A stretch of 64,000 nucleotides of DNA from Rhizaria sp. SCN 62-66 (taxonomy: Eukaryota), in assembly GCA_001724265.1 (NCBI GenBank), contig MEDY01000268.1, positions 1 to 64,000 of the forward strand, written 5' to 3'. Position 1 is the first letter of the stretch, and each line of letters begins with the position of its first letter. Shown here piece by piece: positions 1 to 62,607 of the stretch. A program made the translations under genes and the position numbers. Under the pieces are notes generated by a model. The model ran no database searches, had not been told where the DNA came from, and saw nothing but the letters and a program-made list of their open reading frames with translations.

Positions 1-1
1 T

Positions 2-1791: not shown

Positions 1792-3481
1792 TCACACGGT
1801 GTAGACAACCTTCTGGTAGAGGCCGCCAAAGAAGAGCTCCTTGGTGCGGCCTGTAATGCGCGCGGCATCGACTGGCGCAATGAAGGCGTCGATCTCGTGC
1901 TCCCACAGGTCGTCCGCGAATGGCTCCAGGTGCTTGTTGACTGGGAGGAAATGCGAGGGGGCAGACGGTTCGACAGGATTGAACAAGAGCAGAGAAGGGA
2001 GAGAATGAGCGAGATAGCACAAGGACAAACATCGTTAGTTGAAAACACGTCAACAACCAATAGCAAAGCCACACATATACAAGATGAGGGAATGCTTGAA
2101 CAGATTTCGTCGAAAAACAGCGGGTTGTCCCTTAGGAGTCAAGACATACCAAGACGCATGATAGGCTTAACCGGGTTCACACTGCTGGGCTAGTGGTAGT
2201 CAACAAAGACAAGCTTGGCGCCCGGCTGTGCGACGCGGAAGGCCTCGGAGATGATGCGGCGGCGCACGTCCTCGGGCACCTCGTGCATCAGGAAGAAGGA
2301 CAGCACGAACCCGAACTCGCGGTCGCTGGCGAGGAAAACGAAGGCAAAGAGGCACAAAAACAGTGGCGTTTGACAAAAAAATCAAATAAAATTAGCCACA
2401 GTACCAAAAGAAGCTATTTCAAGCAAGAGAGTAGTCAGATAACCAAATCAGACGCGAGTCAATCAAGTGATAGAGCTGCATGGTACGAAACAGGTATGGC
2501 AGCATTCAAAAACATCGCACAATTGATACGGTAATGCGGCGCTCGCCGCGCGTGCATAACACCCGTCTCGCGCACGTACCCGTAGCAGCTCATGTTAACT
2601 GCATCACCCTGGCGCAGCGTGAACCGACGCGCGTCCTTAACCGTCGCAGAATTGGCGCCGCTGCCACCGCTGCTGCCGCTGCTGCTGCTGCTGCTGCTGG
2701 TGTAAGCGCGATCCATAAAGATCTTGCTCGTCTCTGCCTCAGCCGCCGTCGCTGCCGCCGCAGTGGCGGCGGGCGCGGCGAGCGGGGCCCGCGCGTGCTC
2801 TGCGTCAACCTTGCGCGCGACGATGTCGAGCTGCACGGTCGAGATGTCGACGATCTCCAGCCGCGCGCCGGGCTCGAGCGCGGAGAAGAGGGCGGGCGAC
2901 ACGCTGCCGTACGCGCATGCAATCTGCAGACAGTCCCCGTTTACCGCGGGCGCGGCAGTACCGGTCTTGGTAGCGGCGGCGTTTTTGGCCGCGTCGACGT
3001 GGGCGCGGTACTCGGCGACGGCGGCGTCGCGCAGGCGGTCATAGTTGCCCCAGAGGATCATGTTGACAACAAAAGGGTGATCAAAAACCTTGGGCGACCA
3101 GGGCTGCAGGTAGGCCCACCAGTAGACGCGCTTCATGTAGTCGGGCATGGCCGCCACGGGTGCGAAAGCCGGGTCAGCCAGCGGCGATGCGAAGTGCTCG
3201 AACGGCGTCGCCGGCATCGGGATAGACGAGGATGCCTTCGCCAGCGAGAGAAGTGGCGGCACGGCCGTCGCAGACAACGACGCGGCCGCGGAAGGGACGC
3301 CCGCGTGAGAGGCGGTCGCTGCGGGCGCGGCGGCGGCGGCGGGCGCGGCGGCAGCGGCAGCGAAGGCTGTGCGTGGGACACTGGCGACGCGCAGAGGAGC
3401 CACAGACAGTGCAGATGAGCTGCGCAGAGGCACAGCGCGCGCTAGACTGCCTAAAAGACGCCCCAAACCACGGCTCGCCAT
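1792..3481 (-). CDS. rquA: Rhodoquinone biosynthesis protein RquA with predicted mitochondrial presequence; 3 exons (3481-2580, 2325-2150, 1940-1792), about 408 aa, in-frame TAG at 2190-2192
   Basis: RquA-type motifs PDYMKRVYWWAY, VFDHPFVVNMILWGNY, LQIACAYG, FFLMHEVPED, VFVDYH*P, LEPFADDLW and GGLYQKVV. Splice phases join correctly (GG|C, G|TC). Arg/Ser/Ala/Leu-rich N-terminus without acidic residues. Ends in TGA. Confidence 0.9.
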
Positions 3482-3940
3482 GAGTCTATCTACAACAGTG
3501 AAGTGATAAAGAGGTAGACGGACAAATGCAAGTCAGTTGTGAAGACGCTGATGTTACTAGAGCGTATCTTCAGGAGTAGATATCACATGAGAAACAGACT
3601 TATATTACATAAAAAAATGTTAAGCAAAATATAAAAGCCAGGATGAAGTAGAATACGAAGATTGATTCGCTATTCACTGTCAGAGGACGCCACGCAACAA
3701 AGCAATTGGTCGACAATACGTCACCCTCCTCTGTCGCGACTGCAGTCCCCCTGTTTCCGCCAAGAAGGTGTGACCAGGAGGGTCAGGAAAAAGTAGAATC
3801 TGTGAAACAAATTGGTGTATTGTTGTTGTTGATCGTTTACAGTGTATTGCCAGCAAGGCCGTGGCCATCTAAACTTATTCACGACAGATTTAGCGCATAT
3901 ACTGCGATATTCCTGATTTGCGGCGCGGTTGTTTGTGTGC

Positions 3941-4522: not shown

Positions 4523-4983
4523 GGTGTGGCGTGCGATCGAGGCTTTGATTTAAATCCCTTTACAAATATAGCGCAGGTGAAAACGCAATGGAAACGCGCA
4601 AAGTGGCGAAATTACAATTGGCGAAGACAATCTCCCACAAATCAACCGACAAAATCAGCCCGCGGACCCAGCTGCTGCGTCCAGCAACTCGGCCTTTTTT
4701 CGGAACTGCTTCGGCAGACTGGCTGGACACCAACAGCAACCCTGCCTTTGGACGTCTCTAAGTCAATATATAGTCCGTCATTGAATATGTGACACATGCT
4801 TTCGAATTTAACATCACATCTATTTGCTACTCTGGAAATTGAGCTGTTTGGCATACTAATCCTGCAACATTGAAGGGCTTAGAACTGACGGCCGTTTTTC
4901 CCCCTTCCTCTCTTCTCTCTCGGCCTTTCCTTTTCTCCTTACAGACTCTTCAAAAAGCTTCCTCAACCATTTTCGGCGCGCCA

Positions 4984-7900
4984 ATGTTCCATCTTGGCGC
5001 CGCGGCGCGCGACATGGTGATGGTGCACGAGCAGATGACGATCTGGCAGCTTAAGCTGCGAATCCAGGACCGCGACGGATACGTGGCGCAGGAGTTCGAG
5101 CTGCACCGCCAGCTCTCCTCCACCTCCTCAGTCTCGACTTCTTCCGCGCTGCCGTCGTCCTCGCGCGGCCACGGGGCCGCGGCGAGCGAGCGGTTTACGA
5201 CTGGCTCGCTGACCGTGGTGTCTGTGATGGTGCACAACGACCAGACGCTGCGCGAACTTGGTATCACCGCCGAAACCCCTGAGCCGCTCTACATCGAGCT
5301 CATCCGTCCCCCTGTTGACGACACCATGCACGGCTCCGGCGCCGCGAGTGGCGCCGGAAGTGGCGGCGCGGGGCACGCGCGCAGGGACTCGCTGCAGTTC
5401 GCGGGACAACCATCGCAGCTTGGACAGTCTGGACAGTCTGGACAATCGCAGTCTCAGTCGCAGCGTTTGCAGGCGCAGTCGTCGCCGTCGCAGTTGTCGC
5501 AGGATCAGCTGCTCGAGGTGTACGGCGCGCGCTTTGACGAGAGCTCTGTGCCGCCGGACCAGCTTTTCCCGCTGCTCGTCACGCTCGCGCGCGAAGGCGA
5601 CATCACGCGCACCGCACTCGTGCACACACCTGCACTCACACACAGCGCGCACAACGCTGCGGGCGGCGGGGCCGACTACAGTCCGCCGGGCTCGGCCGCG
5701 TCCGGCGCCGCGGGGGCGGTCCGCAGGCTGCCCAACGGGCTCTCGAACGCCTCCGCCTCCGCAGGCAACAACGGCAACGGCGGCGGCAATGCCTCAGGCC
5801 AACAACAACAACAACAAAAACAACAACAACACCAACAGCAGGCGTTTCTGACTGCGTCTGCGGCGGACCCGTACGCGTCGCTGGCCGTGGTATCCGGCCA
5901 CTACACGCTTGTTGGCGTCGACGGCACGCCCTTGCTCGCCGCTCTCGCCACCCCCGGTGGCAGCGGCGGCTCTGGCGGCGCTGGCGGCAACGCGGGCGGC
6001 GTCGACTACGAGGCCGTGCTCGCGCGCTCCCGCAGCCGCGCCGCCGCCGAGCGAAGGACTGCCACATCATCTGCAGCTTACCACGGCGCCGGCGGTGGTG
6101 CGGGCGACGGCGAGCCATTGCCGCGCATGTCGCCCGCGCTCAGCGGCGTCAGCGGCTCTAGTGAAGGGCCGGGCAGCAGCTCGCGCCTCGCCTCCACGGC
6201 CCTCGCACCCGCCGTAGCCCCCGCCGTCGTAGCCGCCGGCGTGCCGCCTTACGGCGCAGGCGTGCTCGCGCCCTCATTGCGCGCTTCGACAGGCTCCAAC
6301 GCCAGCGCAAGCTCTGCTGTTGCTGATGCTGCTGCTGCTGCTGCGTCATCAAACTCTAGCTCTAGTGCGAGCGCCGCCGTCGCCGCCCGCCGCGCGACCG
6401 CCTCACCCGCCGCTCACACCACAGGCGCTCCCGCTAGTGCTCACACAGGCGCTGGCGCTGCGATGGGCGGCGGCTCTGCGCTGGACGCGGCGCTGGCCGC
6501 GCTGGGCGCCGCGGCAGCCGTGGCGGAGGTGGCGCAGCTGGAGCACCGACAGGCGCACCACTACGCACGCGTGCACTCCGAGGCGCTCGACGGGTACCGG
6601 CTGCTGGCCGCGGGCGACGCCGCAGTGCCCGAGCACGTGCACCGCGTGGTGCTCCTCGCGCAGACGCCCAAACTCGCCACCACGGGCCCCGTCGGCGATC
6701 TGGCGCTCTTCTCCAGTCTGTCGTTCCTCGACGTGAGCGGCAACGCGCTGCCGCTGGCGCCGCTGGGCACGCTGCCCGCGCTCGAGCATCTAATGCTCGC
6801 CTGCAACGGGCTACGCGGGGCGGACCTGGTGCCCATCCCGGCCTCGGAGCCCGGCGGCGCACAGGAGCACGACGACAACTACAACGCCGCCGCCGCCGTC
6901 GCCGCGCTCGCAGTCAGGAGCGGCGGCGGAGGCGCGCACACGGGCGCGGGCGCCTTCGCTGATGTCGCCGCAGACAGTGGCGGCGCGGCGGTGTCGGGCC
7001 GCGCCCGCCGCGCGCTGCGGCGCCAGCGGCGGCTGGTTCGACGTCGCGCCGCCGCGGCCGCGCTGGCGGAGGTGCGCGCACGCGTCGTCGCCCGCTCCGG
7101 CGGCACGTCCGAGGAGGTCGCCGCTGCTGCGGTGCCGGATCCCGTCTCCGGCGACGACATCGACCTCGACGCAGAAGCAGCAGCGCAAGGAACCGGGGGT
7201 GGCGGCGGCGTGCGCGGTACGCCTGGGCACGCGTTCGACGGGGACATGTCGCTCTACGGCGACTCGTCCACCGACTCTGAGCCTGAGGGCGACGCCGCTG
7301 GCGCGGGCGCTGGCGGCCCCGACGCGGGCGGCCTGAAGAAGGCCTAGAGCGTCGACGTGTCGGCCGCCGGTGCCACTGACGGCAGCGGCGGCGACGGGTT
7401 CGGACCGGAGGGCTCTGCGATTGCGGGTTCGGCGTCGGGCGCGGCCGGTCTGGGCGTCGCGGGCGCGGGCGGCGAGGAGGCCGGCGCCGCGCACTACGCG
7501 CTCTTCAGCTCCGACATCCGCCGCGATGAGCTCGAGCAGGCCCGCTCTGCCGCCGCGGCGGCCGCGGCCGCCGCGCGCGCCAAAGCCGGCGGCAATAACG
7601 ATGGCGACGGCGACGCGGAGGACGAGGCGGACGAGGAAGCGGTGGCGCTGCTGGCCGCGCGTAACGCGGCGGCGGCGGCGGTGCGGCGGCCCCGCGCGGC
7701 GCGGCGCGAGCGTTTGCACCGCGGGCGCGCGCGGCTCGCGGCGGCAGCGCTCTCGCTGTCGGCCGCGGCGAGCGCCGAGGAGGTCTGGGCCGTCACGCGC
7801 GACATCCGCGCCTCGGCCGAGCCCGCGGCGCTCGAGGCCGCGCTGCGCCTTGGCTGGCCTGACGTCGTGGCCGCGCGCACCGCGCACGGCGAGGGACTAT

Positions 7901-10353
7901 CGGTGCCCGCGCGCGGCGACGCGGGCGCCGAGGCGCTGCGGCAGCTGCGTGAGCTGCAGCGCGCAGAGGCGTTTCTTGCGGCATACCCACCCGCGACGCT
8001 CGCGCCCATGGTCGGCTTCGGCGCTTTGCTCTCGCTCGACCTCAGCTACAACGCGCTGCCGCCCGCGGCCGTGCTGCAGCTCGCAGCGCTGCCGCGTCTC
8101 CAGGAACTCAGGCTTGCCGGCAACGACTTGCGCTTTCTCCCGGCGGATTTAAGCGCTTTCCGCGCGCTTCGCAGGCTGTCATTGCGCCGGAACCTGCTCG
8201 GCGGCGCCTCGCTGCTCCAGTCAAACAACACCGGCGGCAGCAAGAGCGGCAGCTTCAGCGCCAGCGCGAGCGGCGCGCCCGCCGAGAGCGAGTCCGCGGT
8301 GTGGGAGCCCGACGCTGTGCAGCTGCAGCTGGCACTGTACCACTCGCTGGCGTCGCTGCCGGCGCTGGAAGAGCTCGACTTGAGCGAGAACAACCTCACT
8401 CTGTTCCCGTCGCCTGACGCGCTTGAGGCCTTCGCGCGCCGCGGGCGCCAGTCTGCGCTGACGTCAGCGCCCGCTGTGGCGCGCTTCGTGACGGCCGCGC
8501 TGGGCGCCGCGGCGGGCGCGGCCGTGCAGCAGCGCTTCGTGGCGAACCGGCGCGCACGCGAGGCTCGCCGCGCCGGTGCCGCGGGGCTGCCGCTCAAGGA
8601 GCCCTGGGAAGAGGCGCTGCCGCCCCACGCGTCCGGCGCAGAACGGCTACGGGCGAAGCGCGAGTACGAGCGCGACCAGCTCCGCAGCCACACCGCGGCC
8701 GCAAATGCTAACGCTAGCGCCAGCGGCAACGCTAGCGTTAAGGCGAGCATTCTCGTCCTGCGCTCTGCCGGGTCGGTGCTGGCGAGCACTGCCGAGGGAG
8801 TTGAGGAGGAGGAGAACAGCGGCAACTGCGGCGCCACGGCTGCTGAGGTGGACATGGGCATGCCCGTGTTCCCGCGGCTGAGCGTGCTGAACCTGTCGAT
8901 CAACCACATTGCGAGCGAGCACGCGCTCGTCGGACTGGGTGTACTGCGCGCGCTGCGCTGGGTCGACGTGCGCGGCAATGTCTTTAACGCCGCCATTAAC
9001 ACGCAGCTGCACTCGCGCCTCCCGCCGCTCGCCGTGGCATTTCCCGTGCTCGCGCGCTTCGTCGTGCAGCAGGCCGGTGCGTCACTCGTAGTGGCCAACC
9101 CGCGGCCCGCGCCCGCGCCCGGACAGGAGAACGACCACATCATGGTCCCCGGCCGCACATCGCGCACAGCGGCGCTGCCCGCGCAGTCGCGATCGCAGCA
9201 ACAGCAGCTGGTGCACGACGACTGGCTGGCGGCAGATCCCGGCTCCGCCCCGCTGACCGCCCCCGGCACTGCGGGCAGACGCGGGGGTTCCGCCGCCTCT
9301 GCCGCGGCGGCTCCAGCGGCGCCTGAAAACGCGCGGTGGACCGTGCCGGCGCAGTCCCGCGTGGGCACCACCGGCACCGTCACCGTCAGTTCTCACCCCA
9401 ACAACACTGGCGTTTTGACCAACTATGACTCGGGCCGCACCAGCGGCGTCGTCGCGGGCTCCGGCGCTGCGCACACCAAGGGGGGCGCGAGCGGCGCTGC
9501 GGATGAGCTGCGGTACATGCTGGCCGCGGGCAGCGCGGACGTGTCGGGCTTGCTGGCGGGCTCGCCCTACGCCGCAGTGCTGGTGCAAGCCGACGCCGAG
9601 GACGAGCAGCGCTGGCGCATGCAGCGCGCGGGCGCTCTACCGCCGCAGCCGCGCGGGGCGGTCACCACCGCGCAGCTGCGCGCCTCGCTGCGCCCGCACG
9701 TTCCGCCCGCCGTGCGCGGCGCGCGCGCGGCCGAGCGCCATCAGCGCCAGCAGCACAAGCAGCTGCAGCAGCAACGGCAACGGCAGCAGCAGCGGGGGTT
9801 GGCGACTGCGGGTGAGAACGCGCTCGCATTTACGCCCGCTGCCGGCCGCGCCGAGGCCACTGCGGCCGCCGTGGCCGCGCGTGCCGCCACCACGGGCCGC
9901 TTTGCTAACTCGGCGTCGATGTCGGCATCGACGGCGTCGCTGGGCTCTGGAGCGGGCCGCGCAGCGTTGTACGCGCGTGTTGACGCCGCCGTGGACTCGC
10001 TCGACGCCGCGCTGCGCAGTGCGGACACGGCGCAGGGCTACGTGGGCGGCAACGCGGCCGCCGCGGCGGTGCTCCCGCAGCACACGCAGACCGTCCGTGC
10101 GCGCGCCCGCGGCGTTGGAAGTGACCACGGTCACGGACAGCATGGCCACAGCCGGCTTGAGGCGCTGGGCCTGCGCGAGTCGGTTCAGTGTGCGGGCGGG
10201 GACCCGGCGGACAGCGGCGTGTTCGTGTCGCGGCAGATGGCGCGCGCGGAGGAACGCCGCGAGAAGGAGAAGCGCGCACACGACGTCGAGATCCTGCTGC
10301 GCACGGTCAATACGGCGCTCGCAGAGAGCCTCTGGGGACAGGACGCGCAGTGA
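4984..10353 (+). CDS. Large leucine-rich-repeat protein (possibly XRRA1-like) with a possible N-terminal ubiquitin-like segment; about 1789 aa if the TAG at 7345-7347 is read through
   Basis: ORFs 4870-7347 and 7357-10353 share a frame and are separated only by TAG AGC GTC GAC. LRR units lie on both sides (LSFLDVSGNAL, LEHLMLACNGL; LLSLDLSYNAL, LQELRLAGNDL, LEELDLSENNL, LSVLNLSINHI). The start codon is uncertain and an upstream exon is possible. Confidence 0.7.
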
Positions 10354-10805
10354 GATCTTGGCGGATATGCAGCGCTGATGAGCACTAACTGATTTATTTT
10401 TATAGTCATACTCTATATTTAGTATTAAAATACACATAGTTTCATATTTTCTCTGATTAGTCTCTGTTATCTCCTCTTTGCTGAACTCTCCCTGCTTTTC
10501 CACGTGCACGGCGTGTGCCTCGTAGGTGCGAGAGAGCTCGAATCAGACCACGATCAAGGCTTCAAAATTACATCGTTCAAATGGGGTAATTCTGCGTCAA
10601 TCAGCGGGCGCGGTCGATTTCTAGATTGATCTCTACATTTAATTTCTTTTTCTATTTTTACATTGCGAAAAGACTGTATAGAGTCCTCAGGCGAAGCGCT
10701 TAATATACACCCGCGACCACCCATCTCGAGCCGTTGTCCGTCCCGCGCTTTTCTGGCCCGAGCGGAGGCTTCCCCTTTTCCCAGCCCGCGTTTGCCCCGC
10801 GCAGA

Positions 10806-14188: not shown

Positions 14189-14222
<34 letters not shown>

Positions 14223-16459: not shown

Positions 16460-16495
<36 letters not shown>

Positions 16496-20956: not shown

Positions 20957-22525
20957 TTAGAGGCGGGCGTTCTTGGGCATGTACTTCATGGTCTGCTTCA
21001 TGCCGAGGTCGAGCATGATCTCCTCAGAGCCTCCGAGGATAGCGGCGTACTTGACGGCGCGCTGGAAGCGCTCGATGACCTGGCCCATGCCGGTGCGCGT
21101 GATGGCGCGACCGCCGAAGACCTGGCACGCCTTCTCGGAGATGTCGAGCGCGACGCGCGTGGCCTGGTACTTGCACAGCGCGATGGGGCCCGCGAGGTAG
21201 CGCGTCTGCTCCGCGTAAGTCATCTTGCACATCTGGTACGTGATGTTCTCGGTCCAATTGTACACGGACTCGAGCTGCGCGACCATCTGGCCCAGCTTCT
21301 CGCGGATCACGGGCTGCGCGATGAGCGGGCGGCCGAAGACGATGCGCTGATGTGCCCACTTGAGGCACTCCTCGACAACAAGGCGCGCGCCGCGCAGCAC
21401 GCCGACGATGATCATCCAGCGCTCGTGGTTGAAGTTGGCCATGATGCACTTGAAGCCCTCGTTCTCCTTGCCGAGCAGGTTCTCGACGGGCACCTTGACG
21501 TTGTCGAAGGTGACGAACGCGGTGCCGGCAGAGGGCGAGTAGGACGTGATGATCTTCTCGGTGGCGAGGCCCTCGGAGCGCTCAATCATGAGCAGCGAGA
21601 CACCCTTGGCGCCGGCCTCGGCGGGGCCGGTGCGCACGGCAGTGACGAAGTAGTCGGCAAACGAGCCGTTGGTGATCCACTTCTTGGTGCCGTTGACGAT
21701 GTAGAACTTGCCACAGGGGGACTTGGTGGCCGTGGTGCGGATGGCGGCGACGTCGGAGCCAGCAAAGGCCTCGGAGATGGCGAGGCAGATGCGCTTGTCA
21801 CCGGCGAGCACGGGGGGGACGAACTTGGCGATCGTCTCGGGGGAGCCGAAGTGGATGACGGGGGGCAGACCGATAACAAGACCGGCGCCCAGACCGTCGG
21901 TGGCGCCGGGGCAGCCCAGCTTGGCGATCTCCTCGTGCACGATGAGCTCGTGGAAGAAGGAGAAGTCCTTGGGCGCGATGCCGCCGGGGAGGCCGTTGGG
22001 GGTGAGGGTGAGCGCGGGGCCGGGGCCGATGCGGCCGGCCCAAATACCGGCCTGGCCGAGCTTCTGGAAGAGCTCCAGCGAGGGCTCCTTGCCTGACTCC
22101 TCGAGCTGGAAGACCTGCTGGCCGATGATCTCCTCGAGCGTCTTACGCACGGCGGCGCGGAAGGCGACGTGGGACTCGGTGAAGTAGGCAGACTTCATGC
22201 CCATCCAGGCGGAGGACTCGGAGAAAGGAACGCCCGAGAAGGACGCGGGGGCAGGCCAGAGGTTGGCCGCGGCGGCCTTCTCCTCGCCGGCGATGACGCC
22301 GACGACGAGGCGCTCGTACTTGCGGAGCACGTCGACGCGGTGCATGGCGAGAAACTCCTTGGTGGCGTCCTTGCCGGCGAGCTCGACGAGCACGTGGCGG
22401 CCACCAGGGTGGAACTTGGCGAACGTCTTGAGCTGGTACACCTTGGCGTTGATGATCACGAGCAGGTCCTCCTTGCTCGCGGCGGCAACCTCCGCGCGGG
22501 TATAGGTCTTAAGCGGCTGACTCAT
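20957..22525 (-). CDS. Acyl-CoA dehydrogenase with N-terminal cytochrome b5-like heme-binding domain, 522 aa, C-terminal -ARL
   Basis: b5 motif FAKFHPGG...AGKDATKEF. ACAD motifs CLAISEAFAGSDV, YIVNGTKKWITNG, FNHERW, CQVFGGRA and ILGGSEEIM. Intronless, ends in TAA. Confidence 0.92.
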   Translation of the reverse strand: MSQPLKTYTRAEVAAASKEDLLVIINAKVYQLKTFAKFHPGGRHVLVELAGKDATKEFLAMHRVDVLRKYERLVVGVIAGEEKAAAANLWPAPASFSGVPFSESSAWMGMKSAYFTESHVAFRAAVRKTLEEIIGQQVFQLEESGKEPSLELFQKLGQAGIWAGRIGPGPALTLTPNGLPGGIAPKDFSFFHELIVHEEIAKLGCPGATDGLGAGLVIGLPPVIHFGSPETIAKFVPPVLAGDKRICLAISEAFAGSDVAAIRTTATKSPCGKFYIVNGTKKWITNGSFADYFVTAVRTGPAEAGAKGVSLLMIERSEGLATEKIITSYSPSAGTAFVTFDNVKVPVENLLGKENEGFKCIMANFNHERWMIIVGVLRGARLVVEECLKWAHQRIVFGRPLIAQPVIREKLGQMVAQLESVYNWTENITYQMCKMTYAEQTRYLAGPIALCKYQATRVALDISEKACQVFGGRAITRTGMGQVIERFQRAVKYAAILGGSEEIMLDLGMKQTMKYMPKNARL

Positions 22526-24577
22526 ACTACAAGTTCAAACGAGAGCAGAAAAGCGGGCGAATACCGGGCAAGAGTAAGTGTAATGGAGTTGTGAGAAACA
22601 TAAATGCACACATATAGATCATGAATTGTGATTGCAACTAGTAGATATTGAAACCTATGCTGAAATAATTGACTGCAGCAACAATTCTGGCAGTTCAAGC
22701 CCCCCTTCCAGCAATCGGAGGCACCAAGCAAAATATTCGGTCTGTTTGTTTGTACATATGCCGGGTTGTAAGAAGCAAGATGAAGTTGGAGTTATGTAAA
22801 CTAGTGCCCAGAGCGTCTGGATTCAGCGCGCTAACAACCGATGAACGTTCTCACCGTCTGATATTAAGGTGTGAAAGTGGCCGGCCTGCAAGGTTAGCGC
22901 GTCAACCGACGCCCGGTGAGTGTTTAGCGCTCCATGCACGTTAATAGCTGTCGAGCAGACTGGCACCAGTGAAAATAAAGAGAAACAACAATCGTTTATC
23001 GAATGTAACACCTTCCATGCACGCCGACGATCTCTGGCTGCTACAGTCGCTCCTGCAAGAGGGCGGCGACGGGAGCCTGTCGGTGGGCTTGTTGCCCCTC
23101 CGACGAGCCCAAAGTTAAGCCGCCTAAGCCCCCGGTACACACGCTTTATCTCAGTAGTACTAATGCCTTCAGGTTCAAATTTGTAGTATAACATTGTACT
23201 TAATATTTAAATTCGTAATCTCGACGTGATATTTGTCATTGTGGCTATCTGTGATGAGATATCTCGTAAATGCAAGCGTGGTGTCTCCTTAGAAGATTCA
23301 CCACAAACGCGATTAGACGTGCTTCTGACGTGACCCTTTAGTAGATTACGAAAATTACAACACTTCCACAATTTTGACGTACATTCCATTGATATACTTT
23401 TAAATAGTGCCGTTGGAGCTTGGATCCACTTCTACACACTGGTTCAAAAACAACAATATATCCACTGTCTGTTCGCACCCGCTGCGTTATCACAATGTTT
23501 CGATAAACACAGAAAGAATACTGTGTTCAGTGCCTGAAAAGTAGTTTCGCACATGATATATAATATTATGTATGTTTATAGGAAAACCCAATCCATCTTG
23601 ACTGCACTTCGTGTCGCTGCGGTTGCGACCACAAACGAAACTCAGGTAAACAAATATAAGTATAGAGACATGTATTCAAGTTAGTTTGAAAGCCCAATCG
23701 GTGTGGCAATATTTCCCTTGCAAGATTAGTCGATCAATCTTAGTAGTAATTTCATCCTGTGCATATTCAAGTTTGTATCACGCTCTATTTCAATTTGAGC
23801 CGAGCATGCAGGCCATGACTTGTAACACTCCTCCGTCGTCGGCGAACACGTTCCATAGCATACTGTACACATACGTCGCGCGTTATAGCATGTTTAAGGC
23901 ATTTTTTCAAACCGTTGCAACAATAGCTGATGCACCAGCTCTCTTATTCCTGGTCTGTGGCAAGCCTCGACATCAGAGTGACAGCTTAAACCACCTTGAA
24001 CACTCGCGTCCTGTTGCCGTGTCGTATCATGACATATGAATGAATAGATTTTGAACCGAGTATGATTTTTTCATTTGTTCTATCTTGTGCTTTAGTTGCA
24101 CGAGGGAAAATCTAGGTTTTTGGTGCCTCCAACATGAATATGGACACCTGTACAACACCTTATCGAGGCGATCTCACCCAGGTCTTTGCAGCATTTGCAA
24201 GTGATGACATATACCAGCGCTGCTAACAAAATAGTTATTTAGCGAGCGCAGTATCGGCGTATCTTGGCCGATGAGTCGATTACTTGGACATTCACATCAC
24301 TGTTGATATATACGTTGCATTCGTGGTTAAAAGTCTTGGCACTAGTTCGAACATAAATCCAATCTCACCACAAACAGCAAAAAATCATGACGTGAAGACC
24401 ACGCGAAAAGGAGAAAGGGTTCGATGTCGTATTCGCGTAATACTTCGTTGAAACATACGTAAACCAATTCATTATCGAATTATTTGTTGTGACACCTTAC
24501 ATCACAAAATAACGCTTCTTATTGCTGTGAGCTCACTCTGGTAACTACATTTTATTAACGGCTCTTGCTCCAGAGTG

Positions 24578-36665: not shown

Positions 36666-39600
36666 ATGCCTCGCATCGTTTTTCACGCGCGGCTCCTGGC
36701 TTTGACAGCGGGCGCAGCTCTTCTGACACTCATCTCCGCTCCCTGGGCTTTCGTGACTGCCACCCATGTAGCTGGCTCAAGCTCGACGACCGCTGCCGCC
36801 GCGCCTATTGGTCTCGAGGGTGAGTCATTTCACGAGAGCGTCGTGCTTGACCCGCTCCCCGACCACAACACGCTTACCTTGTTCCAGTTTACCATGACGC
36901 ACCCCGTCTCCGACCGTAGCAGTGCAGGTACCAGTGCTTCTTCTTCTTCTTCTTCGTCCTCGTCTTACTCCGCGTTCCCGCGCGCGCTGGGCGAGCTGCT
37001 GGATGCGGCGGGGCCCGCATACGTGCGCCTGACGCTCACACAGGGCCGTTGGCACTCCGACCGCTGGGGACCGCGCTACGTCTCGAGCTACAACCCCGCG
37101 CCTCCAGTCACAGGCAACAGCAGCAATGCGACGGAGCAGAGGGACTCGGTCCTGCCGGCGCCGCTGGACGGGCTTGACACGCGTCCCGCCCCGCCGGGCG
37201 CGGTGCTCGACGTTGCGTTCCCTCCTTTGTTCACCCCCAGTAACAGCAGCAGTGCGGGAGCGCAGCAGAGTGCGCGCAACGGCGGTGATCTGCGGCCGCA
37301 GATGACGGCACGCGAGGGCCAGGCGTACGCCGCGCTCACGGGCGGACTCGCGGGGCTGTTTTGCACCTCGCTGACTGTGCTGTCCACTGGTAAAGATGTC
37401 GCTGCTGTCCTCACGCCCTCTGCAGCCGCCCACGGTCACTCTGCTGCTCACAGTCACTCTGCTCACGGTCATTCGCCGGCGTGGGTGTTCCGCGCGAGTC
37501 TCCCGACCGAGGCCGTGTGCACCGAGAACCTCTCCGCGGCGACGCGTCTGCTGCCGTGCCGCGCGCACTCCGGACTGGCTGCGCTTGTCAAGGCCGCGAA
37601 CGTGCTCGCCGCAAACAGCTATCTCTCCATCGCACTCACGGCCTCGCGCCAGCAGGGCTTCTCGCACCGGCAGGACTCGCAACGCCAGCAGGCGGCGCTG
37701 TCGCTTTGGCGTGTGAGTGTGACGGTGGCCGCGGTCGTGCCCACGGTTACGCTCGTGTCGCCCACGCTCGGCTACACGCCCGCTGGCGGGCTCGCGAAAG
37801 CCGCTGCGGCCACGGCCGGCTCCGACGGCTCCGTCATCTCCCTCCTCGAAGCCTGGTCCCGCACCACCCGCGCTAGCGGCAGCAAAGGCGCGAACTCCGC
37901 GTCGTTTGCAGTGGAGCGCTGCCCCGTTGCGGCGGCGTCGGCCGTGTGGTTCCACCTCAACCCGTGGCTAGTGGCCCACGCGGCTGCGCGCCGCGACGGA
38001 TACGTCGCGCTGCCCGCCGCGCCCACCGCGGCCTACATTACTGCGGGCGCAGGTGCGGACGTCAGCGCTGACGTCAGCAAGGCGAGCTTGACGTGGGGCG
38101 TTCCCTTGCACACTCTGCCGTTCAGCGCTCTGCAGTCCGGCGCTGGCGTCATCAGTGCGCAGCAGTCGATCACGCTGTCGATGGCCCGCGGCAGCGGCGG
38201 CGGCCTTGTGATCGGCCCTCCGCAGACGGCACCAGCGGCTGCGAGCGGCATTAACGCGGTGGCAGTGTGCTCGCTGTGGGCGCAGTACGATCTCCTTACG
38301 CACGCAAACAACGACAACAGCAGCGCCGCTGCTGCGGGGGTTGGTGTTCCTGTGTTCGCTGTCAACCACCGCGCCGTCCGCGTCGCGCCCCCCATGGCCA
38401 CCGCGGCCGTCGTTGCGCGCGCCGCCGCTCTCCCGGGCACCGCCGGCTCTAGCGCAAGCACTAGCGCAGGCGCCAACACAGGCGCGGTCGCGGACGCTGG
38501 CTTGACTGTGGGCGGCGACAATATCAACATCGCTGTGGAGGCCTCGAAGCGGCTTAACTTTGACTCGCAACTGCAGCACCAGGGCCCGCCCGTGGTGGCG
38601 TCGGCCGCGGTTACGGGGACGAGTCTGCGCCACAGCAGCCTCAAAATCCGCTTTGAGACCGACGCCCGCGCCAGTCAGTACTTGGGCGCCGCGGGCAGTG
38701 CGACCGCGGAAGTCGACGGCGGGTTTGTGGTACAGGCGACAGTGGTGCTGCCCTGGTGGGTGGGCGCCGTGTTCACGCACGAGATCTCCACTTCCGTCTC
38801 TGTCGCCACGGCGTCCACCGCGAAGCCAGCTTCTGTTGCTTCTGATGCTGCTGGTGCTGCTGCTGCGGTCAAGACAGCGCCGGCTGTGTCCGAGCAGCAG
38901 CACCGCGGTGGCGTGGCGTTGTACTACCACAACCCGTTCTTGCGCGCGCTGACGGTCCGCGACCGCGCGCACAGCGCGGCGTGGCGCGCGGCGGCGACGT
39001 TCCTGTCCGAGGAGAGCGGGACGCCACCCAACACCGCGCTGGTGCGCCAGTTGGGCCGCTCGCGTCCCGCCGCCGCCGAGGCCGTGCCAGTCAACTGGGC
39101 AGAGCTGTTGGTGAGCAAGAAAAACGAGCAGCGCCGCAGCGATGAGGCTGACCAGCTGCGCACCGCGCGCCGCGTCGCGCTACACGAGCAACAACAACAG
39201 TAGCAGCAGCAGCAGCGACAACAACAACAGGAAAAGAAGAAGGGCGGTGCAGGCAGCTCAAGCGACGCGGCTCGTGGGACGCTGGGCCGGATTGGCTCGC
39301 TAGATACGGTCGCAGAGAGCCAGGTCGTCGCCGTGTGGATCCAGCGGCCCGAGCCCGCGCCCGTGTTGTCGAGTCTGCTCGCGCGCGCCGTACTCGCACT
39401 GCTGCCCGAGAGCAATCTCAGCGCGCTAAGTACCCCCTTAGACAGCGCGCGCGCGCCGACCGTGGTGCACATCTTCGCGACCGTGCCCTTCGTCTCCCAG
39501 CGCATTCTGGCGGCTGCCGACGACGACAACAGCATTGGCGCCACTGTGCGCGCGGCAGTGGAGGTCGAGGTGCCGTTCGAGAAGGCACTGCTGACGTTGG

Positions 39601-40271
39601 ACGCGTATCCGCCCGACGTTTCGCGCGGTTTCGACCTGCCGCCAGTCGCAACTGCAGTGCTGGGCACGTTCGCACTCGGGCCCTTGGCTGCTTCGCCGTT
39701 CACGGCCGCGTCCGCGAACGAGGGCTTCGACCAGGACGCCCTGGTGGTCGCCGCGGCCGCGCGCGTGCCTGGCGCGTGGCAACGCTACGCGTTCGCGCCC
39801 TTTGCGGGCGACGTTGTGGAGAGCTTCGTGGGCGGGCTGATCGTGCAGCTGCCGTATCCGGACGCGAGCATGCCATTTAACGCCATCGCAGTTGTGTGCA
39901 CCGTCATCGCCTTCTTCTTCGGCTCGCTCTTCAACCTGCTGTACAACTCTGACGACGACTTCGTGCTGTTGCAGCGCAGCAACAAGCTCATCCGCAAATG
40001 CGCCAAGCGGCCTGACACGGCCGCCGCAGCCGCGACTGCGACTGGTGGCTGTGAGAGCGGCGGCGAGAGTGACGGCGACGGCGCCTGTGAGCCGGACAAA
40101 GACGAGGCGGTGGGTGTGGCCATCAGTGAGGCAGCGCTTGCGGCACGCCGGACCGCGGCTGCCGCGACAGCCGCAGTCACCGGGTCCGCAGTCGCCGGGG
40201 CTGTGCCCAGCGCCGCCGAGGACAACGTCAAAGTGGCGGTGGAGGCTGTCTCAAAGACTGTGGATGCTTGA
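36666..40271 (+). CDS. PIGT: GPI transamidase component PIG-T/Gpi16, about 1201 aa, in-frame TAG at 39201-39203
   Basis: Signal peptide, FPRALGE, LTLTQGRW, LAGLFCTSL and EAVCTENL...LLPC lie before the TAG. YPPDVSRGFDL and LPYPDASMPFNAIAVVCTVIAFFFGSLFNLL (membrane anchor) lie after it in the same frame. Ends in TGA. Confidence 0.88.

Positions 40272-43547: not shown

Positions 43548-43581
<34 letters not shown>
43548..43581 (+). repeat. Poly(A) tract, about 34 nt
   Basis: Uninterrupted A run read directly from the sequence. Confidence 0.9.
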
Positions 43582-43582
<1 letters not shown>

Positions 43583-50972: not shown

Positions 50973-51004
<32 letters not shown>

Positions 51005-51400: not shown

Positions 51401-52608
51401 TTTGTACGAATGTCAATCTTTTCACAAAAGTATGGGCTGCCAAAAGTGGGAGTTTGAAGACGAATATTGACGCCGGATATGAACGTTTTGCAATCGTGAC
51501 GAAGCAACCCCGACCAACAGTTTTGAGATCTGACGAGCACCAACACATATTCAAAGATATTCAGCGCCCTATAACGTAGTTAAGAAAGTTTGTTCAGGAT
51601 TACTTTATTTGCGTATGCATGATTTACGAATACTTGCATAATTTTTCTTAAAATAACGAATTTACGACAAGAAGTGCCATTTTATGCCGGACTACCTCGT
51701 TTTTTCACTCCACCGCGCAAACACATGTGTTGATTAATGCGATTGTTTGGGCCACATTTATATTTTTGAACAATTTCATAGAACTTTTGCAATTTAAAAA
51801 CATTCGTAATATGTAAAACCTTGCGTAATTTTAGTTGGCAGTGTATATTTGTACTATCAGATAGAAAAATCACTCCCCCTCCAAAGCCTATGAGGTGTTT
51901 GACCTATGGTATCTGCAGCTGCCAGTCATACGGACTTCGCAATAAGAGGAGCTGGTGCTCCCCACTCACCCGACTACACCGACATGCGTGGGATCGAACT
52001 TCTGCGTTGTCAAACAGGGACTCCATCACACCAAACACAGCATCCGTCACGGGTTACACATGGTGTATTAATACACTTGTTGTCGCCACGTGTTTGCTGA
52101 GCTTGGTACTCGCGCTCTTCGACGCCTTCGCGATGCTCGTGGCGATGCTCGCGTTTCTCAGCCTCGCGTAGTCGATCTACAACGCCGCCTTGCTCTGGCC
52201 CTCGGTGCCGCATTGAACCTGACCTGATCAGGGAGGGTAGGCATTGGCACCTACGACAGATGACATACAAAATCTTACACATAAGCATGAGAACAAACGA
52301 AGAATCCGATTTAAACGATGTATTTTGCGCCAGAAAGTATCGCAAAAATTCTCGACATCTCTCAAGTTGGTCCCACCACGAGCGCAACTCAGACCACCGA
52401 ATTGATAACAGGGTAAGTTGCGTGAAACACCGCTGGACTGCGTCGCCGTCGCCAAATGGGGACGACATCTTCGTAAAGCATCGTGTTAATGTCGAAAAAA
52501 ACGTTGTGTTTATATTAATCCTATGATTATGATATAAAATTTTATGGAAAATTTACGTCATTTCCAATCCGCACATCGTTACGGTGGTAAGCAGAGCACT
52601 ACACAGCC

Positions 52609-59673: not shown

Positions 59674-60364
59674 CAGAGTCCGCAGCTGTTGCTTGGAGCA
59701 GGAGTGTCGCGAGCTGGAACGCCAAGGCTTGACGTTGCGAGGCAGGCTTATTCAAGTCGCTCTAGTGAGCTTTCCTAAAGCCAGGTAGTGTACTAGCCAG
59801 ACAATTTCGAAATTAAACAGTACTTCGAACCGACTCTCCGTCTTATATGTCCAATAATCTAAGTGATATGCGTTGCGAGTGGCGCGTGCGAGGGAAGTCG
59901 TCGACGAGTTGATGGGTGAGCTAGTGTAACGGAAGGAGCGCTGAAAGGAGTTATATAAAGAGATAGAACAATGTGATTTTAAGTACAGCGAGGTGTAATC
60001 GTAAATTGCCGATCATTGCGACCGCTAGATCTCCGCACGGATTATAAGTCTCTTGTCAGGTCCTTTCGTTATGACCGTTTCGTCACTGTTCCCAACCTCG
60101 CGCCTGGCCACTGTTGTGACGCAAACTCATAACATCGATTGGACTTGACCAGATCAATACCGCTACAACCGATGTAAAGGTATGTTGATTTATTGTTGCT
60201 ATAAAACTTAAACACTGCAATTTTAATACAGCTGCGCGTCACTCTGGCCACGAATCATATTATTATCAGATCATATCCATCGCAGAGAGATGTGTCCACT
60301 CCTTCACATTTCTCTTCGCACAAATCGCTCACACGCTCTTACACCCATACGCTTTCACGCTCAC

Positions 60365-62607
60365 TCACTGGTAGAACGCGCTGCGCGCAGGCGCCTTAAT
60401 GCCCGCGACCCGGCGCGGCGGCGCGCGCTCCAAGTACGCCAGAGTGTCGTACCACTCGCACTTGGCCGCGGCCTCTTCCGTCATTCCACGAGCACTGCCG
60501 TTCTCGCTGTTGCTATCACTGGCAGCCTTGCAAGTGCGTGCTGCAATGCGGGCGCTGCGGGCGACGTAGGGCAGCATGGGTAGCCCGTCGGGCCCCAGTT
60601 CCTCCTTGCCCTCCGCACTCGCACTCGCCTTCGGACTGGCACTGGCGTTACATTCAGCGCTGTTCGTGACACAACGCGCCTTGTTGACCGCGACGCCGTC
60701 GCGCATGCCAATGCTGACGCAGTAGTGCCCCTGAATGAGGTGCCACTCCTCGAACTCGTCGAAGATCTCGATCCGCTCCGTCCGCTGCAGCACCCCCCGC
60801 TCGATGTAGTAGCCGTACACGTCGTTCATGCTCCACGCGCCGTGCCGCGCGAAGCCCAGCTCGAGGAAGCGTCGCCGCTGCGCCTTGAGGTCCGGGTAGG
60901 CAGGCAGCCCAAGCAGCGGGCAGCCGCGCGCCGCGAGGTTGGCCATCATGGTGCGCCCGAACGGGTCGTTGGGGTGGATCTGTTCGTATGTGGCCAGCAC
61001 CACGGGCCCCGTAAACGCGCCAACGACGCCCGAGCCCAGGACCGTGGCGGTGACTGGCGCGCCGTTGCTGTTGCTGGTGTCGGCGCTGGCCACGGTCGTC
61101 GTCTTGAGCACCGTCTCCGTCTCCGCGTCAGCAGCTGCGCTGTTGCTGTTGCTGTTGCTGTTGTCGGTCTCGCTCGCGCTCGCAGCCGCCGCAGCCGCTG
61201 CTGCAGCGGGAGTGGGCAGGGAGGCGACGTACGACAGCACGCCGGCGCTATCGTGCGGCTTCATGTACACGAGCACACACTCGGACAGAAACAGCGTCGG
61301 AGCCGCGAAGTTAAGCCGCGTGTGCTGAGTCAACAAAGCGTGGAGCGCGGGGATGTCGCGCAAGTCGGCGCCCACGAGCGCAAAGTCGCGCCAGCGGCCG
61401 CGCGCCGCGCCGAGCTCAGGCAACTGCGACTATGACGGTGTCGAGGAGGAGGACGACGACGACGACGATGACGAGGCAGATCCGCTACTGCATGAGTCGG
61501 CGTATGCAATGTTGAAGCAGTTGGGGTTGGGCGCGGCGAGGTGTGTCTGGAGCTCAGGCGTGGCGGCGATGATCGCGAGCTTCTGCGCCACAGACGACTC
61601 GAAGTCGATCTCGACGTAGTAGTCTGGGGTCTGCCGGGGGTCACCGGTGGCCTTGAGGCGCCAGTAGGTGGTGTCAAAGCCCGCGCCCAGAGACACAACC
61701 TGAGAAGTCAAACAAAACAACACAACATAGCAGAACAGAAAATGGTTGTGAGAAGCGAGATGTGAGCATGTGAGAGTACAACTTATCTGATGGATGAGAA
61801 GCACTTAAACACGTGCAAGATATAAACGGTCAGTGAATGGTCAAGGTTTCGCGCTTAACGCGGGCGGCGTACCTGTGCAGGAAGCCCGTGCGCGCGCGAG
61901 ACGGCGACGAACTCCTGGAGCAGCTGGTCGAGCGCCTGCACGCGGGAGAAGTACCCGCGGTTGATGAGCGGGGACCGCCGCACGAAGGCTGGCGGGAGAA
62001 GTGTCGCGGGCGCGGGCGCGGGGGCCGGCGCGGGCACAGTGGTGGCCGCGGATGAGGAGGACGACGCCGTGGCGGCGGAGCCGCCCAGGGGAGCGGGCTG
62101 GACCGGGGCGGGCTGCGCCGGGGCAGCATCAGTCTCGGGAGCGGCAGCAGAGGCAGCGGCGGGGGTTGGGGTCTGAGGTGCGCGGGGGCGGGTGTTGGGC
62201 AGCGCCGGGTGGGCAAAAAAGGTGATAAAGTCGTCCTTGAAGTAGCCCAGCTGCGCCGCGGACCTGTGGCGGGACAGCGAAACAGCGGAGCGCGTGTGAC
62301 GAGATGAGCGAAGAAGCAAGGAAAGATGACGAATTGCGGCGTGACAAGAGGACAGAGAGTGAGCGCGGCCGAGGAGATATATATAAAATAGGCAAGATAA
62401 CCGATGTTGACAAAAATGATGGCTCGGCGGACATTGAAACGGTCGGCGCAGTGTGCAAGGGGAGGATTGCAAGAAGAGGGATGATGCGACTAGAGGATTG
62501 ACATACAGCTTTGAGAGAATAGCATCGTTGGCGGTCTTGCGGACCTCGAGGCCAGCATTGACACCGGCAGCGGCGTCCTCCAAACCCATGGGGCCGGTGG
62601 CTTGCAT
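60365..62607 (-). CDS. LCMT1: Leucine carboxyl methyltransferase (LCMT1/Ppm1); 3 exons (62607-62507, 62263-61873, 61699-60365), about 608 aa, in-frame TAG at 61430-61432
   Basis: TANDAILSKLSAAQLGYFKDDF, RRSPLINRGYFSRV, QVVSLGAGFDT and YVEIDF lie before the TAG. ALVGADLRD, PTLFLSECVLVYM, YEQIHPNDPFG and EIFDEFEEWHLIQGHYC lie after it. Ends in TGA. Confidence 0.9.

What the first reader, a model, noticed from the sequence alone, without database searches (positions are those of the whole stretch)
2190..61432. Probable non-standard nuclear genetic code: UAG read as an amino acid (likely Gln) while UAA and UGA stay stops
Seen: four unrelated genes (rquA 2190-2192, LRR 7345-7347, PIG-T 39201-39203, LCMT1 61430-61432) each have exactly one in-frame TAG with intact coding sequence continuing in frame. 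I saw no internal TAA/TGA or frameshift in any model. All 17 models end in TGA (12) or TAA (5). Established: most nuclear stop reassignments (ciliate/hexamitid type) change UAA and UAG together, and UAG-only reassignment is known from very few lineages (e.g. Iotanema spirale, UAG=Gln). Inference: this lineage decodes UAG as Gln, which would need a CUA-anticodon tRNA and an eRF1 that ignores UAG. TAG is rare next to CAG/CAA, which fits GC-biased codon usage or a young reassignment. I cannot tell from the window whether this organism is already described.
Basis: partly seen in the sequence, partly recalled or inferred. Interest (0 to 1): 0.95.

Follow-up and report, generated by a model that had tools for sequence, protein, structure and literature searches.

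The report
UAG read as amino acid, wastewater protist
A stretch of genome from an uncultured wastewater protist, probably a rhizarian amoeba or flagellate, has the stop codon TAG inside several essential genes and never at a gene end, so this organism most likely reads UAG as an amino acid, a rare kind of genetic-code change.

Summary
All four in-frame TAGs are at the stated coordinates, in GC-rich exons. Three lie between consecutive parts of the same protein-family profile (RquA, Gpi16/PIG-T, LCM). In rquA the TAG takes the place of exactly one residue in an ungapped alignment with the closest relatives.

In 14,382 hand-modelled coding codons I count TAG 4, TAA 0, TGA 0. Sixteen gene ends use TGA (11) or TAA (5), none TAG. 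Independent assemblies carry the same TAG at the two sites I could lay.

UAG decoded as an amino acid, with UAA and UGA as stops, is the best reading (about 0.78). Gln is not shown. The only alignable site has Glu in 3 of 3 closest relatives, another sits in a polyQ run, and the rest are in variable loops.

Two single-gene trees place the organism with Rhizaria (Guttulinopsis; Amorphochlora). The nearest precedent is therefore the sainouroid "rhizarian exLh" (UAG=Leu), not Iotanema.

No tRNA or eRF1 gene is in the window and no whole genome was available, so the mechanism is inferred. I rate it a new member of a known, rare kind, notable for very low TAG usage (0.03% of codons).

The parts
2190..2192 (-). 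In-frame TAG in rquA exon 2, 13 codons (plus one base of a split codon) before the GTATGT donor
   Evidence: Sequence. Exon 2 matches RquA profile 115-170 across the TAG. The three closest relatives align without a gap and have Glu here.
1792..3492 (-). rquA gene: exon 1 within 2519-3492, exon 2 at 2150-2325, exon 3 at 1795-1940, stop TGA at 1792-1794
   Evidence: NCBIfam NF038261 hits of 99.4, 70.9 and 44.4 bits to profile 1-115, 115-170 and 174-217. Splice sites were read from the sequence.
7345..7347 (+). In-frame TAG in the long LRR-protein exon
   Evidence: 834 and 1001 open codons on either side. Coding periodicity is continuous. There is no AT-rich spacer. Contigs of X1 and X3 bridge it with 0 differences.
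4843..10353 (+). LRR-protein reading frame (stop to stop if TAG is read through), ending in TGA at 10351-10353
   Evidence: The LRR_8/LRR_4 hits lie downstream of the TAG.
39201..39203 (+). In-frame TAG in PIG-T, inside a CAA/CAG run (QQQQ-TAG-QQQQRQQQQ)
   Evidence: Sequence. Gpi16 profile parts 114-216 lie before it and 459-545 after it.
36666..40271 (+). PIG-T (Gpi16) single-exon gene, stop TGA at 40269-40271
61430..61432 (-). In-frame TAG in LCMT1, in a poly-Ser loop about 20 codons before the conserved VGADLRD motif
   Evidence: Sequence. LCM profile 85-130 lies before it and 125-186 after it. Relatives P0278 and P0279 have one uninterrupted ORF through this loop.
60365..61699 (-). Last exon of LCMT1, stop TGA at 60365-60367. 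The C-terminus matches that of relatives.
52169..52171 (+). Candidate fifth in-frame TAG, in a short hydrophobic GC3-rich frame (about 52073-52213) that ends in TGA. The gene is unidentified.
   Evidence: GC3 is 0.93 both before the TAG and over the 14 codons after it, higher than after any of the 16 true stops as computed (0.21-0.71; the rquA row was computed in a wrong frame). No Pfam family. If the TAG were the real end of this frame, it would count against the main reading.
20957..22534 (-). Acyl-CoA dehydrogenase with cytochrome b5 domain, single exon, stop TAA. Used for taxonomic placement.
   Evidence: Pfam, homologues, trees.

Best explanation
The window is nuclear DNA of an uncultured, GC-rich eukaryote from wastewater and bioreactor communities, probably a rhizarian (Cercozoa, perhaps near Sainouroidea). 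[quoted passage not shown]

Shown here:
- TAG sits inside the coding sequence of at least three conserved genes, and in rquA it occupies one residue position.
- It is fixed in several assemblies.
- It is absent from all modelled gene ends.
- No TAA or TGA is in frame.

Inferred, not shown:
- Decoding is by a tRNA with anticodon CUA, which pairs with UAG but not UAA.
- eRF1 has weakened recognition of UAG.

The amino acid is unresolved. My odds are Gln about 0.4, Glu about 0.2, Leu about 0.2, other about 0.2.

TAG is very rare (4 of 14,382 codons) and all sites are at variable or disordered positions. This fits a young or weakly used reassignment.
For: 1. Homology across the TAG. RquA profile 115-170 covers exon 2, and the relatives P0125, P0127 and P0128 read VDYH-E-P..NPVKPIM with no gap at the TAG. 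The Gpi16 and LCM profiles are split across the TAG in correct order. The LCMT1 relatives have one continuous ORF through the loop.

2. Codon census: TAG 4, TAA 0, TGA 0 in 14,382 codons of 24 exon segments.

3. Gene ends: 0 TAG among 16 (11 TGA, 5 TAA). If TAG made up 20-30% of stops, the chance of this is 0.028-0.003. That 20-30% range is my own recalled estimate. C-termini agree with relatives for ACAD, LCMT1 and rquA.

4. Not an assembly error. Contigs of other runs bridge the rquA TAG (X1, X4, X5) and the LRR TAG (X1, X3) with no difference there. The 55-aa ORF that stops at the rquA TAG is on record from 4 contigs. The ORF starting 2 codons after the LCMT1 TAG is on record from 2 contigs.

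5. Not an intron. All four TAGs lie in blocks with 60-nt GC of 50% or more, whereas the recognised introns are AT-rich with GTAYGT donors.

6. Sequence context. 15 of 16 true stops are followed by a purine. The in-frame TAGs are followed by C, A, C, T.

7. Precedent in the probable lineage. The rhizarian exLh (Sainouroidea) reads UAG as Leu and stops at UAA or UGA (PMC5304391, passages read).
Against: - Only four (perhaps five) sites in one 64-kb window; no genome-wide test was possible.
- No tRNA gene in the window and no eRF1.
- No spliced RNA evidence. The contigs of the RNA library X5 that lie on the window include intron sequence, so they may be DNA carry-over or pre-mRNA.
- TAG usage of 0.03% of codons is far below the one described case whose counts I read (exLh: 384 UAG in 71 genes, PMC5304391).
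- No TAG lies at a strongly conserved residue, so the sites would also be the ones most tolerant of inefficient read-through.
- The gene models and stop tally are hand-made.
- The short frame at 52169 could be a gene that ends in TAG.
- The upstream half of the LRR gene has no family match.
Confidence: 0.78

Rival explanations
1. UAG is still a stop codon genome-wide. These few TAGs are leaky stops read through by near-cognate tRNAs (for example tRNA-Gln) often enough to give working protein. That would be ambiguous decoding, not a reassignment.
For: TAG is very rare and found only at variable or disordered positions. 3 of 4 sites have a pyrimidine at +4, which I recall as a weak termination context. 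The PIG-T site reads CAG-TAG-CAG, partly like the known leaky UAG-CAR context (recalled, not from a call).
Against: The domains after the TAG are indispensable parts of RquA, PIG-T and LCMT1, so low-level read-through would waste most product in 4 of about 17 genes. 0 of 16 gene ends use TAG. There is no shared context or local RNA structure at the sites (z-scores 0.82, -0.13, -2.38, 0.41, 0.70).
Confidence: 0.09
2. The mRNA is edited at these codons, for example A-to-I turning UAG into UGG (Trp) as in filamentous ascomycetes, or another change. The genome would then carry TAG but the ribosome would never meet it.
For: In fungi restorative editing acts mainly on UAG and rescues genes with premature stops (PMC4817773, PMC10776026, PMC11156358: abstracts seen in search listing). 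That would explain why all in-frame stops are TAG.
Against: Fungal editing is tied to sexual development and favours hairpin loops. Here the genes are housekeeping and the five sites show no common hairpin. Editing does not explain 0 TAG among 16 gene ends. Trp would be odd in polyQ, poly-Ser and charged-loop contexts. The one contig from the RNA library that covers a site keeps TAG, but it is unspliced and so weak evidence. The organism groups with Rhizaria, not fungi.
Confidence: 0.06
3. The TAGs are real nonsense mutations or assembly errors: the genes are pseudogenes or the consensus is wrong.
For: In a genome with GC-rich third positions, most single-base routes to a stop give TAG. So 'all four are TAG' is only weak evidence by itself (my reasoning from the codon counts).
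Against: There are no frameshifts and no TAA or TGA in 14,382 codons. Coding periodicity and family matches continue after each TAG. The same letters appear in contigs of runs from three studies dated 2015-2025 and in 4 and 2 database contigs. Four essential single-copy-type genes broken within 64 kb is implausible.
Confidence: 0.04
4. Small or unusual introns remove the TAG codons.
For: Introns are common here, and two other in-frame stops (TAG 11430, TAA 19103) do lie in introns.
Against: The recognised introns are more than 100 nt, AT-rich and start with GTAYGT. None of the four TAGs is in or near such a block. In rquA the alignment with relatives needs exactly one residue at the TAG. LCMT1 relatives translate the same loop.
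Confidence: 0.03

Closest known systems
Rhizarian exLh (Sainouroidea, Cercozoa): UAG = Leu, UAA and UGA stops (Panek et al. 2017, PMC5304391)
   Same: Only UAG is reassigned and termination is by UAA or UGA. It is probably the same broad lineage. In the ACAD tree the window groups with Guttulinopsis vulgaris and with a protein from the Lygus hesperus transcriptome, the data set in which exLh was found. In the LCMT1 tree it groups with the rhizarian Amorphochlora. Sainouroids are common in sewage (PMC8827150, passages read), which matches the run labels.
   Different: exLh has 384 UAG in 71 genes, at conserved Leu positions. Here there are 4 in 14,382 codons, none at a conserved Leu. I did not show that P0091 is from exLh. 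The sequenced sainouroid Rosculus vilicus has 37.7% GC (PMC10770858, passages read), whereas this window has exons of 65-74% GC. It is therefore not that species, and placement inside Sainouroidea is uncertain.
Iotanema spirale (Fornicata), and the ciliates Hartmannula sinica and Trochilia petrani: UAG = Gln, UAA stop (PMC5304391; PMC11687900)
   Same: UAG-only stop-to-sense change with a predicted tRNA(CUA). Gln is the commonest outcome. One site here lies in a polyQ run.
   Different: These are unrelated lineages. Gln is not demonstrated here, since the alignable site has Glu in relatives. In the ciliates UAA is the preferred stop (PMC11687900 abstract), whereas here TGA dominates (11 of 16).
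Codes reading UAG (or UAR) as Glu: peritrich ciliates, Blastocrithidia, Oligohymenophorea sp. PL0344 (PMC11687900 introduction; PMC10553269 and PMC12153298 abstracts seen in listings)
   Same: Glu is what 3 of 3 closest RquA relatives have at the TAG position.
   Different: In peritrichs and Blastocrithidia, UAA is reassigned too. Here UAA is used only as a stop (5 gene ends, 0 in frame).

Membership tests
Nuclear code with UAG-only stop-to-sense reassignment | In-frame UAG inside conserved protein-coding genes, taking the place of a residue | tested here: met
   rquA, PIG-T and LCMT1 have family matches on both sides. The rquA alignment is ungapped at the TAG.
Nuclear code with UAG-only stop-to-sense reassignment | UAG not used as a bona fide termination codon | tested here: met
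   0 of 16 modelled gene ends in this window. This is window-wide only, and one ambiguous short frame at 52169 remains.
Nuclear code with UAG-only stop-to-sense reassignment | UAA and UGA never in frame, and used as stops | tested here: met
   0 TAA and 0 TGA in 14,382 codons. 5 TAA and 11 TGA at gene ends.
Nuclear code with UAG-only stop-to-sense reassignment | A tRNA gene with anticodon CUA | not testable with these tools
   ARAGORN found 0 tRNA genes and Rfam gave 0 matches in the window. No genome is held.
Nuclear code with UAG-only stop-to-sense reassignment | eRF1 with altered stop-recognition region | not testable with these tools
   eRF1 is not in the window. Other contigs of the organism could not be reached.
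UAG = Gln (NCBI table 15 type; Iotanema type) | UAG aligned to conserved Gln in orthologues | tested here: inconclusive
   1 site lies in a polyQ run. 1 site is aligned to Glu in 3 of 3 close relatives, and Gln is not among the five commonest residues of that column. 2 sites are in unalignable loops.
UAG = Leu (rhizarian exLh type) | UAG aligned to conserved Leu; UAG frequent | tested here: not met
   None of the 4 sites is at a conserved Leu. Leu is 8 of 152 in the rquA column. TAG is 4 against 1,200+ Leu codons. With so few sites this lowers the Leu reading but does not exclude it.
RquA (rhodoquinone biosynthesis methyltransferase, NCBIfam NF038261) | Match to the equivalog profile over its full length | tested here: met
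   The three exons cover profile 1-115, 115-170 and 174-217 of 218 with 99.4 + 70.9 + 44.4 bits. Each exon alone is below the 175-bit cut-off. The sum is a rough one, because the spliced protein was not scanned as one sequence.
Fungal-type restorative A-to-I editing of UAG | Edited A in a hairpin loop; UAG also used as an ordinary stop; RNA differs from DNA | tested here: inconclusive
   There is no common hairpin at the five sites and no TAG stops. An RNA-versus-DNA comparison was not possible, because the contigs from the RNA library are unspliced.

The most novel reading that the evidence does not exclude
This is an independent and very young UAG reassignment in a GC-rich, uncultured rhizarian clade that is widespread in wastewater. 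It would have been caught at the stage where the codon is already decoded and purged from gene ends but has hardly spread (0.03% of codons, only at tolerant positions). Its meaning (Gln or Glu) would differ from the UAG=Leu of the sainouroid exLh. Related rhizarians would then have given the same codon two different meanings, and the several related species seen in metagenomes (ACAD relatives at 87, 75, 73, 72% identity) would let the steps of a stop-codon capture be ordered.
Probability: 0.3. Interest if true: 0.85.

Novelty: new member of a known kind. Interest (0 to 1): 0.68.

Why it matters
Nuclear codes in which UAG and UAA mean different things are rare. They bear directly on how a stop codon can be captured while its near-twin keeps terminating. 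Most known cases are ciliates or come from transcriptomes alone.

This would be a genomic case in a free-living, environmentally abundant non-ciliate. TAG usage is unusually low and relatives are available in public metagenomes. That makes the early phase of a reassignment directly testable: loss from gene ends first, spread into coding sequence later.

There is also a practical point. Standard gene callers split this organism's genes at TAG, as the database ORFs P0126 and P0277 show. Its proteome in metagenome catalogues is therefore fragmented.

Tried and rejected
- Whole genome of the window: none held.
- tRNA and other RNA genes in the window: none found.
- Metagenome scan with the ACAD protein to fetch relatives' loci: only one close locus, L001 (87% identity, 2.2 kb, the gene alone, also ending in TAA). 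The other 79 of 80 loci were 59% identical or less.
- Prokaryote-genome scan with relative P0005, hoping its 74-kb contig sat in a mis-binned MAG: only 5 distant bacterial hits.
- Third word-indexed protein search, with rquA exon 2: returned only P0125 again.
- Names for the close relatives: none on record.
- RNA evidence: the pieces of run X5 shown for 1-20000 include several that carry intron sequence (for example 2142-2426 and 11542-11784), and no intron joints were listed. So there is no information on splicing or editing. Cover of the LRR site by X4 or X5 was not shown by a listed piece.
- Only window:1-20000 could be laid (one call), so the PIG-T and LCMT1 sites were not checked against runs. 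They are supported only by database ORFs that start or stop at the TAG.
- A GC3-based screen for stops flanked by coding-like sequence failed as a test, because one antisense frame of every gene also has high GC3 (59 hits, mostly antisense).
- IQ-TREE with bootstraps timed out. FastTree SH-like supports were used instead.
- My first frame for rquA exon 3 was wrong. It was corrected, so the rquA row of the control is invalid.
- Local RNA folds: no shared structure.
- Literature searches found no paper describing this organism or a GC-rich wastewater eukaryote with UAG reassigned.


Full report
WHAT THE WINDOW IS. The 64-kb window is eukaryotic nuclear DNA with a sharp compositional mosaic. Exons are 65-74% GC. 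Introns of about 100-240 nt and the spacers between genes are 30-45% GC. Introns start with GTAYGT-like donors and end in CAG. No whole genome is held for it. A run search found the PIG-T stretch (36600-40300) complete in bioreactor and wastewater metagenome runs of two studies, which may be its source. It found the stretch partly in an activated-sludge study of 2025 that also holds poly(A) metatranscriptomes. ARAGORN and Rfam find no RNA gene in the window.

Genes recognised by Pfam or NCBIfam:
- RquA
- an LRR protein
- Sec3
- a SET-like gene
- a cytochrome-b5/acyl-CoA dehydrogenase fusion (ACAD)
- an ankyrin protein
- a CDKAL1-like radical-SAM enzyme
- a PQ-loop protein
- an importin-beta-like protein
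- PIG-T (Gpi16)
- a TMEM135-like protein
- a 2,380-codon RCC1-repeat protein
- LCMT1
- an RPB9/C11-type small RNA-polymerase subunit

THE OBSERVATION. All four in-frame TAGs are at the stated places.

- rquA (minus strand). The TAG lies in exon 2, 13 codons (plus one base of a split codon) before a GTATGT donor. The three exons match the NCBIfam RquA equivalog at profile positions 1-115, 115-170 and 174-217 of 218 (99.4, 70.9 and 44.4 bits). A search of 1.84 billion cluster representatives with exon 2 (TAG as X) found 211 proteins at E up to 0.001. The three closest (73-79% identical) read VFVDYH-E-P..NPVKPIM. They have exactly one residue where the window has TAG.
- PIG-T. The half before the TAG matches Gpi16 positions 114-216 (125 bits) and the half after it matches 459-545 (78 bits).
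- LCMT1. The halves match LCM 85-130 and 125-186. The relatives P0278 and P0279 carry one uninterrupted ORF through the loop that holds the TAG.
- LRR gene. Only the downstream half has family hits. However, 834 and 1001 open codons flank the TAG, there is no AT-rich spacer, and the GC3>GC1>GC2 coding pattern is continuous in frame through the codon.

CENSUS. In 24 exon segments that I modelled by hand (14,382 codons), TAG occurs 4 times in frame and TAA and TGA never. For scale, the same segments hold CAG 428, CAA 78, GAG 460, GAA 66.

Two other long-ORF junctions are explained by introns. The TAA at 19103 lies in an AT-rich intron of the SET-like gene. A TAG at 11430 lies after the GTACGT donor of Sec3 intron 1.

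I could place 16 gene ends: 11 TGA and 5 TAA, none TAG. If TAG made up 20-30% of stops, 0 of 16 has a probability of 0.028-0.003. That 20-30% range is my recollection for GC-rich eukaryotes, not a call result. The C-termini of ACAD, LCMT1 and RquA coincide with those of relatives. True stops are followed by a purine in 15 of 16 cases. The in-frame TAGs are followed by C, A, C, T.

IS THE DNA RIGHT? I could lay runs on one stretch only and chose 1-20000.
- Contigs of X1 (1189-2656), of the independent 2025 run X4 (1189-2446) and of the RNA-library run X5 (2142-2426) bridge the rquA TAG with no difference at it.
- Contigs of X1 (5846-12376) and X3 (7001-8295) bridge the LRR TAG.
- Differences between runs were listed only at 100-1090, 2025, 4776 and 15064.
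- In the protein collection, the 55-residue ORF that ends at the rquA TAG is on record from 4 contigs.
- The ORF that begins two codons after the LCMT1 TAG is on record from 2 contigs.

Assembly error is therefore unlikely.

The X5 pieces give no evidence on splicing or editing. They include intron sequence (2326-2426, 11542-11633), so they may be DNA carry-over or pre-mRNA.

WHICH AMINO ACID? This is not settled.
- The rquA site is the only one in an alignable column. The 3 closest relatives have Glu. Across 152 aligned family members the column is Arg 57, Lys 28, Glu 9, Gly 8, Leu 8.
- The PIG-T site sits in CAA-CAA-CAA-CAG-TAG-CAG-CAG-CAG-CAG. This suggests a CAG-to-TAG change, but a Gln-to-anything change would also be tolerated in such a tract.
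- The LCMT1 site is in a TCG/TCC run and aligns to Ser/Ser/Ala/Ala in relatives, in a poorly aligned loop.
- The LRR site is in low-complexity sequence.

All contexts are polar or disordered. That argues mildly against Trp, Tyr or Leu, but four sites cannot decide.

A POSSIBLE FIFTH SITE. On the + strand at about 52073-52213 a short hydrophobic frame has GC3 of 0.93 both before a TAG (52169-52171) and over the 14 codons after it. The pattern stops at a TGA. After the 16 true stops as computed, the same measure is 0.21-0.71. The rquA row of that control used a wrong frame and is invalid. No family matches the frame. It is either a fifth sense TAG or, less likely on the periodicity, a small gene ending in TAG. 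I report it as open.

WHO IS IT? Close relatives exist only as unnamed metagenome proteins (ACAD at 87, 75, 73, 72, 67, 65% identity).
- ACAD tree. In a FastTree of 48 ACAD sequences chosen from the 120 listed hits, the window and these relatives form a clade (SH-like support 0.94). The clade also holds EP00461 Guttulinopsis vulgaris and a UniRef protein filed under the bug Lygus hesperus.
- LCMT1 tree. In a FastTree of 36 LCMT1 sequences, the window's clade is sister (0.93) to the only named rhizarian, Amorphochlora, together with one unnamed protein. Alveolates, dictyostelids and green plants fall outside.

These are two single-gene trees with hand-picked taxa, so I put Rhizaria at roughly 0.55-0.6 and Sainouroidea at about 0.3.

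The link matters because the Lygus hesperus transcriptome is where the sainouroid 'rhizarian exLh' was found. That organism reads UAG as Leu and terminates at UAA (56) or UGA (15) (PMC5304391, passages read). I have not shown that the Lygus-labelled ACAD comes from it.

Sainouroids such as Rosculus and Guttulinopsis are prominent in sewage works (PMC8827150, passages read). The one sequenced sainouroid, Rosculus vilicus, has 37.7% GC (PMC10770858, passages read), so the window is not that species.

RIVALS.
- Leaky read-through without reassignment would waste most product of essential enzymes. It does not explain the lack of TAG gene ends, and no common context or structure marks the sites.
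- mRNA editing of UAG, as in ascomycete sexual development (PMC4817773, PMC10776026, PMC11156358, abstracts seen), would explain the exclusive use of TAG. It does not explain the absence of TAG at gene ends, and the genes here are housekeeping genes.
- Pseudogenes or errors are contradicted by the intact frames and by the other assemblies.
- Hidden introns are contradicted by composition and by the ungapped rquA alignment.

VERDICT. The reading 'UAG is a sense codon, UAA and UGA are stops' is well supported within the limits of one window (confidence about 0.78). 'Gln' is a reasonable prior but not shown here.

The kind of change is already known: exLh, Iotanema and phyllopharyngean ciliates (PMC5304391; PMC11687900, abstract and introduction read). 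My four literature searches found no description of this organism. I therefore file it as a new member of a known, rare kind. It is made more interesting by its probable kinship with exLh, its very low TAG usage and its abundance in public wastewater data.

Noticed in passing
window 52073-52216 (+): A short hydrophobic frame (TLVVATCLLSLVLALFDAFAMLVAMLAFLSLA-TAG-SIYNAALLWPSVPH-TGA) with a strong GC3 signal on both sides of a TAG. It lies between the RCC1 and TMEM135-like genes. No family match, and the exon structure is unknown.
   Followed up: partly
window 40306-44341: About 4 kb of gene-poor sequence at 46% GC, strongly A-rich on the + strand (AT skew 0.31), with a run of 34 A at 43548-43581. 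The three ORFs of 148-181 aa there have no Pfam match.
   Followed up: partly
whole window, e.g. 2660-2700, 39190-39235, 61440-61470: Nearly every protein carries long homopolymer or low-complexity inserts (poly-Ala, poly-Ser, poly-Gln) made of CAG/GCA/AGC-type and TCG repeats. These repeats also attract many foreign contigs when runs are laid.
   Followed up: no
window 1792-3492 (-): A complete rquA gene suggests the organism makes rhodoquinone, that is, it can run an anaerobic-type respiratory chain. This fits a low-oxygen sludge habitat. The closest relatives share the position of intron 2, but P0125 lacks that intron.
   Followed up: partly
window 20957-22534 (-): The cytochrome-b5/acyl-CoA dehydrogenase fusion ends in -ARL, and its relatives end in -ARL, -SRL or -AKL. 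This looks like a peroxisomal targeting signal type 1 (motif recalled, not tested).
   Followed up: no
window 100-1090: A cluster of 25 single-base differences between the window and contigs of X1, X3, X4 and X5. The remaining 19 kb that was laid shows only three listed differences. This may be strain variation at the end of the first gene and its 3' spacer.
   Followed up: no
16 gene ends: The base after the stop codon is a purine in 15 of 16 genes (G 11, A 4). TGA outnumbers TAA 11 to 5.
   Followed up: partly
window 2142-2426, 11542-11784, 14336-14678: Contigs from the poly(A) RNA library X5 run through intron sequence. For this organism the library therefore holds DNA or unspliced transcripts at low depth.
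   Followed up: no
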